From assembly GCA_965207065.1 (NCBI GenBank), contig OZ242260.1, positions 3,328,001 through 3,392,000 on the forward strand: a stretch of DNA of 64,000 bases, written 5' to 3'. This stretch comes from a bacterium (GTDB lineage: Bacteria; UBA8248). Position numbers and translations under genes: made by a program. Position 1 is the stretch's first letter, and each line of letters opens with the position of its first letter. Below are positions 39,339 to 44,688 of the stretch, one piece after another. The notes beneath the pieces were generated by a model, which had not been told where the DNA came from, did no database searches, and saw only the letters and a list, made by a program, of their open reading frames with translations.

Positions 39339-41195
39339 TCAACCCCCGCCGTTGCTTGCCAGCGCTTCGGCCACGTCGTCGAGCTTGAGCCTCCCGAGCG
39401 TCGCCGCCGTCGGGAACCCGTTCTCATCCCAGCCTCTGATGCCATAAAACTCGTTTTTCATGCCCTCCAGTTCATCGGGCGGGCAGTGCATCCCCTTGTG
39501 GGGGCCGTCGGGAATCGGCTCGTGCATCACCTTGTACGGCAGCATGTCGTCCGCGCGGCTCACCCCTTCGCGCACGTGCAGGGCGCGCTCCAGGTTGCAG
39601 ATGCGCTCGCCGGTTTCTTCCAGCTCATCCGCCGTCGTATCCCACCCCGTCACGAGGTTGAGCATTTCCGCGTATTTCTCGTTTATCATCGCCCCGTAGC
39701 CACGCTCCGCCGTGAAGCGGCACTGGGTGATGGAGTCGCCGAGTGCGGTGAAGTTCTGCGTGCGCACGGCGAACTCGGGCTTGCCGTCGGTCGAGGTGTT
39801 GTCGTGGTCCGAGGCGTATTGCAGGGTGGGGCGGGTGTCGTGGTGGCTCCCGCCCCGCGTGCCCGTGGCGTAGCCGATGGACATGCCCTTGAGCGCGCGC
39901 GCGCTGTGCGCCGGAAGCTCGAGCCCGCGCGAGGCATACAGCAGATTCGGCGCGTCGCCGCCGATTTCCGCGGCCAGGCGCTTGCCGCCCTCCGCCAGCC
40001 TGTCGCCGAAGCCCTTGCGGTGGGTCATGTCCTCGAGGAGCCTGAGCATGGTGGCCGAATCGCCCCAGTTGAGCGGCTCGCCGACTTCCGCCTCGCTCAA
40101 TAGTCCTTTCTCCATGCTCTCGAAAGCGAGCGAGAGCGTGACGCCTGCGGATATCGTATCCAGCCCCAGTTCGTCACACAGCATGTTCGCCTGGAGCATC
40201 ACCCCCGGGTCGCCGATGCCCAGCATGGTCCCCAGCGCGAAGATGGTCTCGTACTCGGGGAGTTTCCAGACCAGGCCGTCGAACTCGCCGCCCTTCATCA
40301 GGTAATTCTTGCCGCACGCCACCGGGCATTTGAGGCAAGTGGTGTGCTTGTCGAGGAAATTGTCGTGCATGTATTCGCCGCTGATGGGTTCGCAGTTCTC
40401 GAAAATCTCGCTCATGAGGTTCCGCGTGCCGAGCGCGCCCATCTTGTTGATCATGTTGACGAGGATCGGCGTGCCGTATTTGTGGAGCGCCGCCGTGCCC
40501 GTCCGCACGTCCTCGGCCGTCTCGTTCACGTAGGTCCTGAGCGCCTTGGCGTCCGCCCAGGCGGTTTTCGCCTTGCCGCGGGCGGCGATGGCCTTGACGT
40601 TCTTGCTGCCCAGGACGGCCGCCATACCCCCACGTCCGCTGATGCCGTCGCGGCTCTTGCGCCAGGTGTGCGCCATGGCCGCGAAGCGCACCTGGTTCTC
40701 GCCGGCGGGGCCGATGGCCAGAACGTCGGTGCCGCCCTCGTCCTCGGTGATGGTGTCGCACGTCTCGCGGATCCATTTCCCCTTCAAATGGCTAGCGTCC
40801 TTGAACGCCACGCCGTCTTCCGTCAGCATCAGGTAGACGAGGGAATCCGCCTTTCCGTGCAGGACGACGGCGTCGACCCCTGTGCGCTTGAGCGTGATGG
40901 GCCAGGCTCCGCCGAACGTGGAGTCGAAGAAAAGCCCGGTGAGCGGGCTGATGGCGGCGGCGCACGCGCGGCTCGCGCTCGGCACGGCGGAATCCGTATA
41001 GGGACCCACGGCGAAGACGATGACGTTTTCAGGCGATAGCGCGTCGGTGCCGGGCTTCAGGTGGTCCCAGAGGATTTTGGCGCAGAAGCCGTTGCCGCCC
41101 AGGTACTTGCGGCCCATCTCCTCACCGAATTCCTCGGTGCGGGAGGTGCGGTTGCTGAGGTCGATGTGCAGTATTTTTCCTTGATATCCGAGCAT
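39339..41195 (-). CDS. Aldehyde:ferredoxin oxidoreductase family (tungstopterin AOR/WOR)
   Basis: GYQGKILHIDLS, SPLTG, IGPAGEN, GRGGMAAVLGSKNVKAI, CLKCPVAC, EYET, DELGLDTIS, YGIRGWD. Confidence 0.93.
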   Translation of the reverse strand: MLGYQGKILHIDLSNRTSRTEEFGEEMGRKYLGGNGFCAKILWDHLKPGTDALSPENVIVFAVGPYTDSAVPSASRACAAAISPLTGLFFDSTFGGAWPITLKRTGVDAVVLHGKADSLVYLMLTEDGVAFKDASHLKGKWIRETCDTITEDEGGTDVLAIGPAGENQVRFAAMAHTWRKSRDGISGRGGMAAVLGSKNVKAIAARGKAKTAWADAKALRTYVNETAEDVRTGTAALHKYGTPILVNMINKMGALGTRNLMSEIFENCEPISGEYMHDNFLDKHTTCLKCPVACGKNYLMKGGEFDGLVWKLPEYETIFALGTMLGIGDPGVMLQANMLCDELGLDTISAGVTLSLAFESMEKGLLSEAEVGEPLNWGDSATMLRLLEDMTHRKGFGDRLAEGGKRLAAEIGGDAPNLLYASRGLELPAHSARALKGMSIGYATGTRGGSHHDTRPTLQYASDHDNTSTDGKPEFAVRTQNFTALGDSITQCRFTAERGYGAMINEKYAEMLNLVTGWDTTADELEETGERICNLERALHVREGVSRADDMLPYKVMHEPIPDGPHKGMHCPPDELEGMKNEFYGIRGWDENGFPTAATLGRLKLDDVAEALASNGGG

Positions 41196-41434
41196 TTGCG
41201 GTCCCCACGCGAACGAATGAGCGAAATCTGATTCTGTTGGAAGCCCTAGTGTAAACATTTAGGCGTTTTGTGCAAGACCGGACCCGACGGAGGAGGGGTC
41301 GTTGAAAAACCGTTGCTAAACGAGTAACCCCCCAACCCCCCTTGTCAGGGGTCAAACGCGAGTGAGGAGGGGCTGTTGAAAAATCCCTTATGGATCGCGC
41401 CAAAACATTCTCCCCTTGTAGAACCCCCAACAAC

Positions 41435-42000: not shown

Positions 42001-42711
42001 CTACCCCGGAACCTCCATGCGCCGGTAGGACTCGGCGCAATCGAGGCCGCCCTCCTCGCCGGAGCGCTTCGCCCAGTTGCGAAGATGGGGAACCAGTTCT
42101 TCAAAATCCTCGACTTGGCTCTTGTGGCATCTGAGCGCTTTAACTTTGAGGTCGAACGTATCGGTGATGTCCACCCAGGTATCCGCGCCGCGAATCGTCT
42201 TGAAATAGACTTCCTTGGGCGTGTGCGGCTCCAGTCCTTCCGCAAGCAGTTCCGGAAAATAGTTCTCGTTCCCCACGGCGGGATAGAGCGCATCGAAAAC
42301 CGCCCTGGCGATGGCGCGGTGATCGCGGTGGTAGCCGTAGAAACTGTCGAAGGCGTCGTTCGCCGGGTCGTCGGCGATCACCAGGTCCGGCTTGCATTCT
42401 CTCATCACGTGCACGAGGTCGCGCCCGAGTTCCGTGGTGTTGCGTACTTCCCCGTCCGCGTGGCGCAGGAAATAAATTTGCTCCACGCCCACGACGGCCG
42501 CCGCCGCGCGCTGTTCGCTCTCGCGAATCGCTCTTTTATCGTCAATGGTCAACCGGCGCGATTCGGGGCCGTTCACGCCCTTGTCCCCGCTCGTGGCGAG
42601 GCAATACTCGACCCGCCTGCCTTCGCGGGTCCACTTGGCGGCCGAGCCTGCACAGCGGAACTCGATATCGTCGGGGTGCGCGCAGATGATGAGGATTTTC
42701 TGATGTTCCAT
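42001..42711 (-). CDS. PIG-L/LmbE family deacetylase
   Basis: AHPDDIE, TSGDKG, RESEQRAAA, HRDH, KALRCHKSQ. Confidence 0.92.
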   Translation of the reverse strand: MEHQKILIICAHPDDIEFRCAGSAAKWTREGRRVEYCLATSGDKGVNGPESRRLTIDDKRAIRESEQRAAAAVVGVEQIYFLRHADGEVRNTTELGRDLVHVMRECKPDLVIADDPANDAFDSFYGYHRDHRAIARAVFDALYPAVGNENYFPELLAEGLEPHTPKEVYFKTIRGADTWVDITDTFDLKVKALRCHKSQVEDFEELVPHLRNWAKRSGEEGGLDCAESYRRMEVPG

Positions 42712-42805
42712 CGGGGATTCCTTATGTGGGCCGTGCGGCAAGGCGACTTATAGCAGGGGGCGAAGCGCATCGCAAAGAGGTAAGGAGTAACCCGCCGCTC
42801 CGCCT

Positions 42806-42937
42806 TACCCTGAGTAGCGGCGAAGCCGCGTATCGAAGGGTGAAACTCGCGCCCGCCGGGGTCAGTTCCGACCGTGTAGGGAGGAACTGCCTGCCATCCT
42901 TCGATACGGCGCTTACGCGCCTACCCAGGATGAGGCG
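42806..42937. repeat. Inverted pair of palindromic REP-like units
   Basis: ACCCTGAGTAGCGGCGAAGCCGCGTATCGAAGG ... CCTTCGATACGGCGCTTACGCGCCTACCCAGGATG. Confidence 0.7.
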
Positions 42938-43032
42938 TCAGGGTTCTGTTGGTCGCTACCCCGAAAATCTGCTAAATATAACGAAAAACACCTGTGCGAG
43001 ATTTGTTGCGAACCCTATATGAGGAGACAGAG

Positions 43033-43623
43033 ATGTCGAGAATCACGCCGGTGCCCGATGACGCCACGGGCGATCATGAACCGCTCTTTGAACAATCGAG
43101 GGAAAGATGGGGCACGGTGCCCAGCTTCTACCGCGCCCTGGCCCATTCGCCGGAAGCATTGCGCCACATCATGAGCCTGACGGTAGCCCTGAGAAGCCAG
43201 TGGCGGGCCGATCCGTCGAGAATGCGCCTGATGCAGCTTGCGATCCTGACGCCTTCTCTCATCAACGACTGCGAGATATGAACGAACCACAACGTCAAGC
43301 TTGGTCAAGCTGCCGGTCTGAATGATGAGCATGTAGCGTTGATAGTCGATGGATGGGAAAAGAGTGACCTGTTCGATGAGCGGGAAAAGGCGGTAATCCG
43401 CTGGGCGACCGCATTGACGAGAAACACGGCCGCCGCCGATGATGCCTGTTTCGCGCCGCTCAAGGAGTTTTTCAGCGAAAAGGACATCGTGGAACTCACG
43501 TTGTTCACCTGCCTGTTCAACGCCTGGAACCGTCTGCAGGACGGCCTCCACAACCCCGTGGAGCCGCCGGACGACATCATCGGCTGGAAGGAATGGGAGG
43601 AAGTCGTGCAGGTGTCGGGTTAG
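43033..43623 (+). CDS. AhpD/CMD-like peroxidase-related protein with in-frame TGA (probable selenocysteine, CxxU), 196 aa
   Basis: Track ORFs 42994-43281 and 43339-43623 share a frame. Read-through gives SLINDCEI-U-TNHNVKLGQAAGL...FDEREKAVIRWA...IVELT...NAWNR. GAGGAG RBS before the ATG at 43033. Confidence 0.85.
43282..43318 (+). promoter_or_regulatory. Candidate bacterial SECIS element
   Basis: Hairpin AGCTT-GGTC-AAGCT with the apical loop starting 21 nt after the TGA and G in the first loop positions. Confidence 0.6.
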
Positions 43624-43661
43624 GTGGGGGTGAGGAGCAACGGTTTCGTATGAGCGCTCCT

Positions 43662-43869
43662 GTAGGGGCGACCCCCCGTGGTCGCCCATTGTCGGACAGG
43701 CACAGGGGCCTGTCCCTACCGGAGATAGGAAATTGCTGTTGTAGGGGCCGCATATATGCGGCCCGCGCAGACGAGAAAAATCCATGCGTGTCGACAATTC
43801 CCAGATTACTGTCCGTCCTGGTGCAAGCGGCGGGGATTCACCCGTGGGTCGCATATATGCGACCCCTAC
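43662..43869. repeat. Two REP doublets (GTAG-type)
   Basis: Pairs 43662-43687 / 43694-43719 and 43741-43764 / 43846-43869, each bounded by GTAG...CTAC. Confidence 0.85.
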
Positions 43870-43893
43870 AAGTTTCTCCATGAGAGGAAAACC

Positions 43894-44688
43894 GTGGACT
43901 TAGGCATTAAAGGAAAATCGGCCCTCGTGACGGGCGGCAGCCGGGGCATCGGCCGCGAGACGGCGAGGCGCTTTCTCGAAGAGGGTGCGCGCGTGTTCAC
44001 CTGCGCGAGAAACGAAGTGGCTCTTGCCGAGACCTGCGCCGGGCTCGCCGCTGAGACGGGAGGTGAAATCCATTACGCCGTGGCGGATACCTCGAACGAG
44101 ACGGAACTCGCGCCCCTGGTCGAGCGCGCGCAGGAAAAACTCGGTTTCATCGACATTCTGGTGAACAATGCGGGCACCATGAGTTCGGGCAGGTTCGAGG
44201 CGCTCGATGACGCCGCTTTGCAGAAGCAGCTCGACACCAAGCTGTTCGGCTTCCTGCGCCTCATTCGCCTCGTGGAGCCGGGTATGCGCGCGAATGGATG
44301 GGGCCGCATCGTGAACATGATCGGCGGCGCCGGGAAGGAACCCGACCCCTACATGTTCGGCAGCGGCATGACGAACAGCGCGCTCCTGAACATGACGAAA
44401 TCGCTTTCCACCGAATTCGGAGAGGCCGGGATACATGTGAACGCGGTATGTCCCGGCTGGGTGGATACCGCGCTATGGCGGATGAACGCCCAGGGGCTTG
44501 CGGCGGAGCTCGATGCCGGTTCCGAAGATGAGGCCCGCCGCCGCGCGGCGCGAAAGAACGCGCTGGGCCGTTTCGGCAAGCCCGAGGAGTTGGCCGACGC
44601 CATCGTCTTTCTCTGCTCGGAACGTGCGAGCTACATCACCGGAATTTCCTTGAATCTTGACGGCGGCAGGCTCAAGTCGCTCTGGTAA
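43894..44688 (+). CDS. SDR family oxidoreductase
   Basis: DLGIKGKSALVTGGSRGIG, NNAG, VNAVCPG, GRFGKPEELA; GTG start after GAGAGG. Confidence 0.92.
   Translation: MDLGIKGKSALVTGGSRGIGRETARRFLEEGARVFTCARNEVALAETCAGLAAETGGEIHYAVADTSNETELAPLVERAQEKLGFIDILVNNAGTMSSGRFEALDDAALQKQLDTKLFGFLRLIRLVEPGMRANGWGRIVNMIGGAGKEPDPYMFGSGMTNSALLNMTKSLSTEFGEAGIHVNAVCPGWVDTALWRMNAQGLAAELDAGSEDEARRRAARKNALGRFGKPEELADAIVFLCSERASYITGISLNLDGGRLKSLW

What the first reader, a model, noticed from the sequence alone, without database searches (positions are those of the whole stretch)
43033..43623. Hidden selenoprotein: AhpD/CMD-like gene with CxxU and a SECIS-like hairpin
Seen: two track ORFs share a frame and are separated by one TGA (43279-43281). 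Read-through gives a continuous 196-aa protein, ...SLINDCEI[TGA]TNHNVKLG..., with the TGA at the second Cys of the AhpD-type NxCxxCxxH motif (residue 83). A hairpin AGCTT-GGTC-AAGCT follows, its loop beginning 21 nt downstream. Known: bacterial SECIS elements lie just 3' of the UGA with G early in the apical loop, and AhpD-like CxxU selenoproteins are known from marine metagenomes. Inference: a Sec-dependent redox enzyme that standard annotation would split or call a pseudogene; its substrate is unknown.
Basis: partly seen in the sequence, partly recalled or inferred. Interest (0 to 1): 0.85.

Follow-up and report, generated by a model that had tools for sequence, protein, structure and literature searches.

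The report
AhpD-like selenoprotein gene, real but ordinary
The two "half genes" are one gene for a small redox enzyme whose internal TGA encodes selenocysteine, a genuine but already known kind of selenoprotein that gene callers routinely split.

Summary
Window 43033-43623 (+) is one 196-codon frame with a single TGA (43279-43281) at the second Cys of a CxxC redox motif, giving C80-E-I-U83.

- **TGA conservation:** it is kept in 29 of 29 orthologues (59-99% identity). The downstream half is under the same purifying selection as the upstream half (dN/dS about 0.06-0.09).
- **Cys homologues:** 107 of 131 database homologues spanning that column carry Cys.
- **Hairpin:** it is weak on its own (5 bp, -2.7 kcal/mol). 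It sits in a fixed register with a GGUC loop 21 nt after UGA in 57 family genes, and the stem covaries (0 of 500 shuffles reach the observed score).
- **Sec machinery:** the genome has selA, selB, a Sec-containing selD and tRNA-Sec(UCA).
- **Fold:** the predicted structure (pLDDT 93.6) is AhpD/CMD-like.

It is not new in kind. AhpD-like CxxU selenoproteins have been described since 2005-2008, and this lineage (MAGs titled Nitrospinota, GTDB UBA8248) is listed among the most selenoprotein-rich bacteria. The same genome holds ten TGA-bearing paralogues. This scan had already judged a paralogue here, and an orthologue in another genome, the same way.

The gene belongs to a distinct orthogroup (CxIU instead of CxYU) that falls below every curated family cut-off. 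Its substrate is unknown.

The parts
43033..43623 (+). Complete coding sequence of the AhpD/CMD-fold selenoprotein (196 residues, stop TAG 43621-43623)
   Evidence: One frame with a single TGA. Orthologues align over residues 1-196. dN/dS is 0.06-0.13 on both sides of the TGA. AF2 model pLDDT 93.6.
43021..43026 (+). Shine-Dalgarno-like GAGGAG, 6 nt before the ATG at 43033
   Evidence: Read directly. Orthologue identity starts at residue 1. This favours 43033 over the upstream GTG at 42994.
43270..43272 (+). Cys80 codon (TGC), the resolving partner of the CxxU motif
   Evidence: The column is at least 90% conserved in alignment A2.
43279..43281 (+). In-frame TGA read as selenocysteine (U83)
   Evidence: TGA in 29 of 29 orthologues. 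Cys in 107 of 131 spanning homologues. It is the only invariant column of A2. No variant was seen in the contigs laid over it.
43288..43290 (+). His86 codon (CAC) of the CxxUxxH motif
   Evidence: Columns 10-11 of A1 (the first two bases of this codon) are invariant in 57 genes.
43298..43311 (+). SECIS core hairpin: 5' arm AGCUU (43298-43302), loop GGUC (43303-43306), 3' arm AAGCU (43307-43311)
   Evidence: Fixed register in 57 family genes. 83.4% of cells are paired against 70.5% in shuffles, covariation score 0.435 against 0.219, 0 of 500 shuffles as high. 7 of the 8 genome-wide occurrences of this pattern are family genes. In this copy the stem is only 5 bp, -2.7 kcal/mol.
42001..42741 (-). 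Divergently transcribed PIG-L/LmbE-type deacetylase gene; a conserved neighbour, with no functional link shown
   Evidence: Pfam PF02585 94.9 bits. Best NCBIfam match is BshB1 at 98.1 bits, below its 182.5 cut-off. It lies next to the orthologue in 19 of 25 orthologue loci examined.

Best explanation
Window 43033-43623 encodes one 196-residue AhpD/CMD-fold thiol-selenol oxidoreductase.

**Decoding.** Its UGA codon 83 is decoded as selenocysteine. SelB carrying Sec-tRNA(Sec, anticodon UCA) is recruited by a short in-frame SECIS hairpin with a GGUC apical loop that starts 21 nt after the UGA.

**Inferred chemistry.** This follows the AhpD family.
- The selenolate of U83, in the first turn of helix 81-93, attacks a hydroperoxide or an oxidised partner such as a peroxiredoxin-type sulfenate or disulfide.
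- Cys80 then resolves the intermediate as a selenenylsulfide.
- A thiol donor (thioredoxin, lipoamide or a low-molecular-weight thiol) recycles the enzyme.

**Shown here:** gene integrity, Sec/Cys correspondence, a conserved and covarying SECIS, Sec machinery, and the fold.

**Inferred only:** actual Se incorporation, peroxidase-type chemistry, the substrate and the reductant.
For: **Gene integrity**
- Single TGA in a continuous frame.
- TGA kept at the same column in 29 of 29 orthologues, spanning 21 genomes of the genus and 8 of the family. This holds even though synonymous divergence exceeds 1.
- dN/dS of the part after the TGA is 0.06-0.09, against 0.07-0.13 for the part before it, where dS is unsaturated.

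**Sec/Cys correspondence**
- The genome holds 10 paralogues with TGA at that column and 2 with Cys.
- 107 of 131 spanning database homologues have Cys, and 89 have CxxC.
- C83 is the only invariant column of the 65-row alignment A2.

**SECIS**
- 57 family genes align without gaps over 48 nt from the TGA, with G25, G26 and C28 of the loop invariant.
- The stem covaries: pair 20:33 is AU 28, CG 11, GC 8, and pair 24:29 is UA 30, CG 20. 0 of 500 shuffles reach the covariation score, and slid partners pair in at most 55.7% of cells against 83.4%.
- Loop length, stem length, G position and spacing meet the published bSECIS constraints (PMC13188914, passages).
- The selD gene of the genome has its own hairpin with a GGA loop 17 nt after its UGA.

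**Machinery**
- selB 386 bits, selA 579 bits, selD 334 bits with its own TGA, and tRNA-Sec 75.9 bits with anticodon TCA. All are above their cut-offs.

**Genetic code**
- TGA is the commonest terminator of long frames: 382 TGA, 240 TAG, 194 TAA.
- The only UCA-anticodon tRNA is tRNA-Sec.

**Fold**
- AF2 pLDDT 93.6 and pTM 0.89.
- Foldseek matches D. radiodurans AhpD 6k40 at TMq 0.78 and Atu0492 2gmy at TMt 0.83-0.86, with 30 PDB chains at E<=0.001, essentially all AhpD/CMD proteins.
- Profile search against PDB gives E=1.7e-33 to PA0269.

**Reads**
- Contigs of two DNA runs from other studies, and one contig of an RNA library (43235-43501), cover the TGA unchanged.
Against: - The hairpin of this particular copy is thermodynamically weak: 5 bp and -2.7 kcal/mol, or -5.3 with a bulged extension in 45 nt. 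It is absent from the free MFE fold, where the z-score is +1.34.
- The published model's MFE criterion of <= -7.5 kcal/mol is not met by the core hairpin.
- No curated protein model is reached: Pfam CMD 17.4 against 23, TIGR01926 71.2 against 81.8, NF053654 53.9 against 310.
- Tyr82, conserved in at least 90% of A2, is Ile here, so the active site differs from most relatives.
- 24 of 131 spanning homologues do not have Cys at the column (Glu 9, Ser 5, others 10).
- No direct evidence of Se incorporation or of any enzymatic activity exists. The RNA-library contig does not prove transcription.
Confidence: 0.92

Rival explanations
1. The TGA is a true stop. The locus is a pseudogene, or two separate small genes (an 82-aa N-terminal product and a roughly 94-aa C-terminal product), or the TGA is an assembly error.
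For: Table-11 ORF calling gives two ORFs. Public protein collections hold exactly such pieces: P0007 (82 aa), P0002 (109 aa), and in all 4 N-terminal and 18 C-terminal pieces among 153 proteins. The hairpin is weak in this copy.
Against: - TGA is kept in 29 of 29 orthologues at 59-99% identity, with no frame change or second stop.
- The downstream part has dN/dS 0.06-0.09 in the same frame.
- The first start codon after the TGA (TTG at 43339) would discard the conserved His86 and helix 81-93.
- Neither half alone forms the AhpD fold.
- Independent contigs keep the TGA.
Confidence: 0.03
2. The TGA is read through, but as a standard amino acid (Trp, Cys or Gly, by code change or near-cognate suppression) rather than selenocysteine.
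For: Read-through alone would explain frame conservation. One of 131 spanning homologues has Trp and 2 have Gly at the column.
Against: - TGA ends more long frames than any other stop (382 against 240 and 194), and it ends the neighbouring RecQ and AFOR genes.
- tRNA-Trp has anticodon CCA, and the only UCA tRNA is tRNA-Sec.
- A complete selA/selB/selD/tRNA-Sec set is present.
- A covarying hairpin at a fixed distance has no role in plain suppression.
- The column is Cys in 107 of 131 homologues.
Confidence: 0.03
3. It is a genuine selenoprotein whose chemistry is not hydroperoxide or peroxiredoxin reduction. It would instead be another thiol/selenol-dependent reaction of the CMD fold, such as reductive dehalogenation like the debrominase Bmp8, or reduction of a low-molecular-weight-thiol conjugate.
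For: - Bmp8 (6ohi/6ohj) is among the closest solved relatives: TMq 0.75 and profile E=3.1e-30.
- Bmp8 is a CMD homologue described as a dehalogenating enzyme (PMC7918430, passages).
- The orthogroup has Ile or Leu where at least 90% of relatives have Tyr.
- A BshB-like deacetylase gene is a conserved divergent neighbour in 19 of 25 loci.
- Near-identical DNA occurs in runs labelled sponge metagenome.
Against: - Equally close or closer relatives are annotated AhpD or antioxidant proteins (6k40, 7xw1, 2gmy, 3c1l).
- I could not print the alignment to Bmp8 to see which of its residues meets U83.
- Neighbourhood alone is weak evidence, and the neighbour is below the BshB cut-offs.
Confidence: 0.12

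Closest known systems
AhpD-like selenoprotein family ('AhpD-like protein' of the Sargasso Sea 2005 study, PMC1088965; 'AhpD-like 1', COG2128, CxxU, of the GOS 2008 study, PMC2398784; 'AhpD-like protein, TIGR01926, CxxU' in the 2026 review PMC13188914)
   Same: - CxxU motif with Sec at the second Cys.
- Best NCBIfam match is TIGR01926.
- Cys homologues are abundant.
- In-frame bacterial SECIS.
- The GOS table lists 299 Sec forms and 902 Cys homologues (passages).
   Different: - It scores 71.2 bits, below the 81.8 cut-off of TIGR01926.
- It forms its own clade of 13 rows, all Sec, with SH-aLRT 99.
- It has Ile or Leu, not Tyr, before Sec.
- COG2128 membership was not tested.
NCBIfam selenoprotein models NF053654 (GroundWater_YciW, YciW-related (seleno)protein) and NF041238 (AhpD_rel_CFYUT)
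   Same: Homologous AhpD-related proteins for which NCBI already expects Sec. The alignment covers residues 1-173 of the query.
   Different: Scores are far below the cut-offs: 53.9 against 310 and 20.6 against 175. None of the 8 paralogues tested reaches them either. These models would therefore not rescue the gene in automatic annotation.
Solved AhpD/CMD-fold proteins: Atu0492 (2gmy), PA0269 / P. aeruginosa AhpD (2ijc, 2o4d, 7xw1), D. radiodurans AhpD (6k40), 'peroxidase-related proteins' (2oyo, 2pfx, 2prr), debrominase Bmp8 (6ohi)
   Same: All-helical AhpD fold, with TMq 0.60-0.78 and TMt up to 0.86. In the alignments printed, CxxC sits at the same place (INGCAFC in 2gmy, INGCAYC in 2ijc).
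   Different: All solved relatives have Cys, none Sec. Sequence identity is 17-31%. His follows the second redox residue at +3 here (U83..H86), but at +4 in 2gmy and 2ijc.
E. coli-type bacterial SECIS / the bSECISearch consensus model
   Same: A hairpin inside the coding sequence. It has a 4-nt apical loop beginning GG, a 5-bp upper stem and a 21-nt spacing. All of these lie within the published ranges.
   Different: - The core hairpin energy of -2.7 kcal/mol is weaker than the model's -7.5 threshold.
- No Rfam family matches.
- That the E. coli fdhF loop also reads GGUC is my recollection. A search for it found no paper.

Membership tests
Bacterial selenoprotein gene (SelB/SECIS-dependent UGA decoding) | In-frame UGA aligned with Cys (or Sec) of homologues | tested here: met
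   58 of 60 fetched loci have TGA and 2 have Cys. 107 of 131 spanning database homologues have Cys. C83 is invariant in A2.
Bacterial selenoprotein gene (SelB/SECIS-dependent UGA decoding) | bSECIS geometry: 3-9 nt apical loop, 4-16 bp upper stem, G in the first two loop positions, 16-37 nt from UGA to loop (as quoted in PMC13188914) | tested here: met
   Loop GGUC (4 nt), stem 5 bp, GG first, spacing 21 nt. Covariation: 0 of 500 shuffles as high.
Bacterial selenoprotein gene (SelB/SECIS-dependent UGA decoding) | bSECIS minimum free energy <= -7.5 kcal/mol | tested here: inconclusive
   The core hairpin is -2.7. With a bulged extension in 45 nt it is -5.3, and in 60 nt with flanking helices -9.5. 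The passage read does not say over which stretch the model computes the MFE. Relatives range from -14.0 to +2.3, median -4.0.
Bacterial selenoprotein gene (SelB/SECIS-dependent UGA decoding) | selA, selB, selD and tRNA-Sec in the genome | tested here: met
   All are above curated cut-offs in the 4.48-Mb single-contig genome: selB 386.1/242.25, selA 579/267.9, selD 334.5/125, tRNA-Sec 75.9/47, anticodon TCA.
Bacterial selenoprotein gene (SelB/SECIS-dependent UGA decoding) | Selenium actually incorporated at the UGA | not testable with these tools
   This needs 75Se labelling or mass spectrometry.
AhpD-like CxxU selenoprotein family (TIGR01926 / COG2128) | CxxU redox motif at the N-terminus of a helix | tested here: met
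   C80-E-I-U83. Helix 81-93 in the model.
AhpD-like CxxU selenoprotein family (TIGR01926 / COG2128) | Score over the curated cut-off of TIGR01926 | tested here: not met
   71.2 bits against 81.8. It is the best-scoring family but below trust. The gene is therefore filed as a relative (new orthogroup) and not as a certified member.
AhpD-like CxxU selenoprotein family (TIGR01926 / COG2128) | COG2128 assignment | not tested
   No COG library is among the tools.
Pfam CMD (PF02627) / AhpD fold | Pfam gathering score | tested here: not met
   17.4 bits against 23.
Pfam CMD (PF02627) / AhpD fold | AhpD/CMD three-dimensional fold | tested here: met
   Model pLDDT 93.6. 30 PDB chains at E<=0.001, with TMq up to 0.78 and TMt up to 0.86, all AhpD/CMD proteins in the rows shown. 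Profile against PDB E=1.7e-33.
NF053654 GroundWater_YciW and NF041238 AhpD_rel_CFYUT (seleno)protein equivalogs | Score over the curated cut-off | tested here: not met
   53.9 against 310 and 20.6 against 175.
Alkylhydroperoxidase AhpD (functional sense) | Hydroperoxide or AhpC-reducing activity | not testable with these tools
   Inferred only from homology to proteins deposited as AhpD (6k40, 7xw1, 6e8l).

The most novel reading that the evidence does not exclude
The CxIU orthogroup is a functionally specialised member of a roughly ten-fold battery of Sec-containing AhpD-like paralogues in this uncultured Nitrospinota-labelled (UBA8248) lineage. It is conserved next to a BshB-like deacetylase gene. 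In this reading it is not a peroxidase. It would be a selenium-dependent reductase for another substrate class: organohalogens, giving a bacterial CMD-fold analogue of Sec-deiodinases like a Sec version of the debrominase Bmp8, or low-molecular-weight-thiol conjugates.
Probability: 0.1. Interest if true: 0.6.

Novelty: new member of a known kind. Interest (0 to 1): 0.25.

Why it matters
The main value is practical.
- The gene is real, but automatic annotation splits it. Public collections hold the halves, while only 3 full-length relatives were found near this length among 5.8 billion proteins.
- None of the curated selenoprotein models reaches it or 8 paralogues tested. Selenoproteomes of this lineage are therefore under-annotated.

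The fixed-register GGUC hairpin shared by 57 genes is a clean, covariation-supported SECIS example that could seed a family-specific model.

Biologically, ten Sec paralogues of one redox family per genome point to heavy investment in selenium-based redox chemistry. That fits the lineage's published rank among the most selenoprotein-rich bacteria (PMC13326102). The kind of protein and the mechanism are long known.

Tried and rejected
- **Single-sequence RNA folding** gave no support for the hairpin (z +1.34). Thermodynamics alone cannot call this SECIS.
- **Rfam scan** of 43200-43400 at E<=10 gave only two sub-threshold archaeal snoRNA chance matches and no SECIS family.
- **Promoter and terminator scan** of 42700-43950 found no terminator and one promoter-like site inside the gene. 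No transcript boundaries could be set.
- **Bmp8 alignment.** I tried to see which Bmp8 residue meets U83. The profile search ranked Bmp8 sixth, and only five alignments are printed. A 95-residue N-terminal query did not retrieve it.
- **Bmp8 paper.** The recalled DOI is not held, and 'Bmp8 + debrominase' found 0 papers. Only review passages were read.
- **E. coli loop.** 'SECIS + GGUC + SelB' found 0 papers, so the likeness of the loop to E. coli fdhF stays a recollection.
- **Reads.** RNA run X16 has no contig over the TGA, and RNA-library contigs cannot prove transcription.
- **Distant paralogue L062** (C1:1906567) was left out of alignment A1. Its hairpin (7-bp stem, GGC loop) sits in another register.
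- **Not used:** Complex prediction, the protein atlas and the second structure job, because no open question needed them.
- **Supplements** of the selenoproteome papers and the BSepDB database itself could not be consulted. Whether this exact orthogroup is already listed there is unknown.

Full report
**The observation.** Window 43033-43623 (+) is one reading frame. The table-11 ORFs 42994..43281 and 43339..43623 share the frame of the ATG at 43033, and the only stop between them is the TGA at 43279-43281. Reading TGA as U gives 196 residues with N78-D-C80-E-I-U83-T-N-H86. A GAGGAG at 43021-43026 sits 6 nt before the ATG.

**Is the TGA a conserved feature?** A search of 61 genomes (the window's own plus 60 relatives) found matches at E<=1e-10 in 44. 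That included 36 of 36 other genomes of the same family.
- Every row listed carries a TGA inside the match. 175 further matches were not listed.
- Twenty-nine rows are orthologues (59-99% identity over at least 189 residues). They come from 21 of the 23 genomes of the genus and from 8 others of the family. The two genus genomes lacking one are 79% and 87% complete.
- In all 29 the codon at column 83 is TGA.
- Where synonymous divergence is not saturated, dN/dS is 0.06-0.09 for the part after the TGA and 0.07-0.13 for the part before it.

The downstream half is therefore translated in the same frame. In the window's genome, tblastn finds 12 family members. Ten have TGA at exactly this column and two have Cys (CHFC, CPRC).

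**Sec or something else?**
- Of the 153 database proteins returned by the two protein searches, 131 span the column. 107 have Cys there (89 as CxxC, 14 as SxxC). The rest have Glu 9, Ser 5, Thr 3, Gly 2, Ala 2, Asp 1, Trp 1 and Leu 1.
- In the 65-row alignment A2 of full-length relatives that I selected, C83 is the only invariant column.
- The genome is a single 4.48-Mb contig, 96% complete. It has selB (386.1 bits, cut-off 242.25), adjacent selA (579, cut-off 267.9), selD (334.5, cut-off 125, itself with a TGA in KAGG*GSK) and tRNA-Sec (75.9 bits, cut-off 47, anticodon TCA).
- TGA is the commonest terminator of long open frames (382, against 240 TAG and 194 TAA), and it ends the neighbouring RecQ and AFOR genes.
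- tRNA-Trp has anticodon CCA, and the only UCA tRNA among 46 is tRNA-Sec.

A code change is excluded.

**The SECIS, single sequence.** Alone, the hairpin is unconvincing.
- It is not in the MFE fold of 43279-43340, and 188 of 200 shuffles fold at least as well.
- It is 5 bp and -2.7 kcal/mol.
- 0.85% of all 132,636 TGA triplets in the genome have a 5-bp stem in that register.

**The SECIS, comparison.** Comparison changes the picture.
- Fifty-seven TGA-bearing family genes align without a gap over 48 nt from the TGA: 29 orthologues, 8 in-genome paralogues and 20 paralogues from other genomes. One distant paralogue, L062, was left out because its hairpin is in another register.
- T1 G2 A3, C10 A11, A13 A14, T23, G25 G26, C28 and G37 G38 are invariant.
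- For the stem I named (columns 18-24 with 29-35), 83.4% of cells pair, against 70.5% in shuffles and at most 55.7% when partners are slid. The covariation score is 0.435 against 0.219, and 0 of 500 shuffles reach it.
- Pair 20:33 is AU 28, CG 11, GC 8. Pair 24:29 is UA 30, CG 20.
- In pair 24:29 the third base of a Leu codon changes together with a Gln/Arg replacement. That pattern points to an RNA constraint and not a protein one.
- Genome-wide, the pattern "5-bp stem plus GGTC loop at this distance" occurs 8 times, 7 of them in this family.
- The element meets the loop, stem, G and spacing rules of the published bacterial SECIS model (PMC13188914, passages). The energy threshold is not met by the core hairpin of this copy, whereas more distant orthologues reach -7 to -10.7 kcal/mol.
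- selD of the same genome has a hairpin with a GGA loop 17 nt after its UGA.
- Rfam has no matching family.

**What the protein is.**
- Single-sequence family searches are all sub-threshold: Pfam CMD 17.4/23, TIGR01926 "peroxidase-related enzyme" 71.2/81.8, NF053654 53.9/310, NF041238 20.6/175.
- The AlphaFold2 model built on A2 is confident (pLDDT 93.6, pTM 0.89). It is all-helical, and U83 lies in the first turn of helix 81-93.
- Foldseek finds 30 PDB chains at E<=0.001. Those shown are AhpD/CMD proteins: Atu0492 (TMt 0.83-0.86), D. radiodurans AhpD (TMq 0.78), Bmp8 debrominase (0.75), Mlr4105, PA0269 and "peroxidase-related proteins".
- The profile of A2 hits the same entries at E=1.7e-33 to 5e-24.

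By analogy with AhpD, I infer a selenolate nucleophile at U83 resolved by Cys80. That the second Cys is the attacking residue in M. tuberculosis AhpD is recalled and not checked here.

**Place in the family.** In a quick ML tree of 74 rows, the window's gene sits in a clade of 13 orthologues, all Sec (SH-aLRT 99). I chose the rows: 13 of the 29 orthologues, 31 paralogue rows (29 Sec and the 2 in-genome Cys forms) and 30 Cys proteins from the searches. The clade's sister (SH-aLRT 95) is a 15-row clade with CNNU-type motifs, comprising 13 Sec and 2 Cys rows. At least 6-8 Sec/Cys changes are needed on the tree. The orthogroup has Ile or Leu before Sec, where at least 90% of A2 has Tyr. None of the 8 paralogues tested reaches a whole-protein curated cut-off either. 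One passes the short ahpD_dom domain model.

**Surroundings.**
- Upstream and divergent lies a PIG-L/LmbE deacetylase gene at 42001-42741 (PF02585). Its best NCBIfam match is BshB1 at 98.1 bits, below the 182.5 cut-off.
- Downstream lie an SDR (43891-44688) and two EamA transporters. Further upstream lie an aldehyde:ferredoxin oxidoreductase and RecQ.
- The deacetylase is next to the orthologue in 19 of 25 orthologue loci examined. It is absent in 5 distant ones, and one contig ends too early to tell.
- This is a lead for a link to low-molecular-weight thiols and nothing more.

**Reads.** Twenty of the 24 listed runs, from 12 studies, hold at least part of the stretch. In the four runs laid, contigs of X3 (whole stretch) and X9 (42949-43750) cover the TGA with no other letter at 43279-43281. 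So does a contig of RNA library X15 (43235-43501). X16 does not cover it. This argues against an assembly error. It does not prove transcription.

**Comparison with what is known.**
- AhpD-like CxxU selenoproteins were described from the Sargasso Sea (PMC1088965, search listing and abstract only).
- In the GOS survey, "AhpD-like 1" (COG2128, CxxU) is the fourth most abundant family, with 299 Sec forms and 902 Cys homologues (PMC2398784, passages).
- The 2026 review lists "AhpD-like protein, TIGR01926, CxxU" (PMC13188914).
- BSepDB's Table 2 places three MAGs of GTDB phylum UBA8248, named Nitrospinota, Nitrospinaceae and Nitrospinae, among the ten bacteria with the most selenoprotein genes: 54, 50 and 48 (PMC13326102).
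- The orthologues found in genome contigs carry the same kind of titles.
- Earlier notes of this scan reached the same verdict for a paralogue in this genome (e1-356722, e1-356723) and for an orthologue in another genome (e1-3115721). I re-derived the evidence independently.

**Verdict.** This is a genuine selenoprotein gene (confidence about 0.92) of a known kind. It is a new orthogroup below curated cut-offs, and its substrate is unknown. Interest is low to moderate. Its use lies in correcting annotation and in giving a well-supported family SECIS. The boldest reading still open is a non-peroxidase chemistry, such as Sec-dependent dehalogenation or thiol-conjugate reduction, at about 10%.

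Noticed in passing
G000:C1 at 235548, 478755, 571320, 1383132, 1673393, 1906567, 2851726, 3286979, 3675745 (TGA positions; outside the window): Nine further AhpD-like genes in the same genome carry TGA at the same CxxU column. Eight have the same GGUC/GGCC-loop hairpin register. Two Cys forms lie at 3022243 and 2076168. Relatives hold 2-16 matches per genome.
   Followed up: partly
window 43693-43720 and 43741-43760 (also 43661-43690): The intergenic space after the gene holds short GC-rich palindromic repeats. Their 16-mers occur 21-24 and 18 times in the genome. They attract many unrelated contigs in the laid runs, so they look like REP-type elements.
   Followed up: partly
window 42001-42741 (-): A PIG-L/LmbE deacetylase gene, closest to the bacillithiol deacetylase BshB1 but below its cut-off (98.1 against 182.5 bits). 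It is kept divergently next to the selenoprotein gene in 19 of 25 orthologue loci.
   Followed up: partly
G000:C1:543537-544499 (-) (locus L019): selD is itself a selenoprotein here (KAGG*GSK). It has a strong hairpin with a GGA loop 17 nt after its UGA.
   Followed up: partly
window 39339-41258 (-): An aldehyde:ferredoxin oxidoreductase (tungsten-enzyme family, AFOR_N plus AFOR_C, 399 and 229 bits). It changes sides relative to the selenoprotein gene among genomes of the genus, while the deacetylase-selenoprotein-SDR core stays together.
   Followed up: no
locus L084 (G024:C381) and proteins P0009, P0015, P0020: Some family members have Ser in place of the first Cys (SxxU in L084, SxxC in 14 of 131 database homologues). 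The second, Sec/Cys, position is therefore the more conserved one.
   Followed up: no
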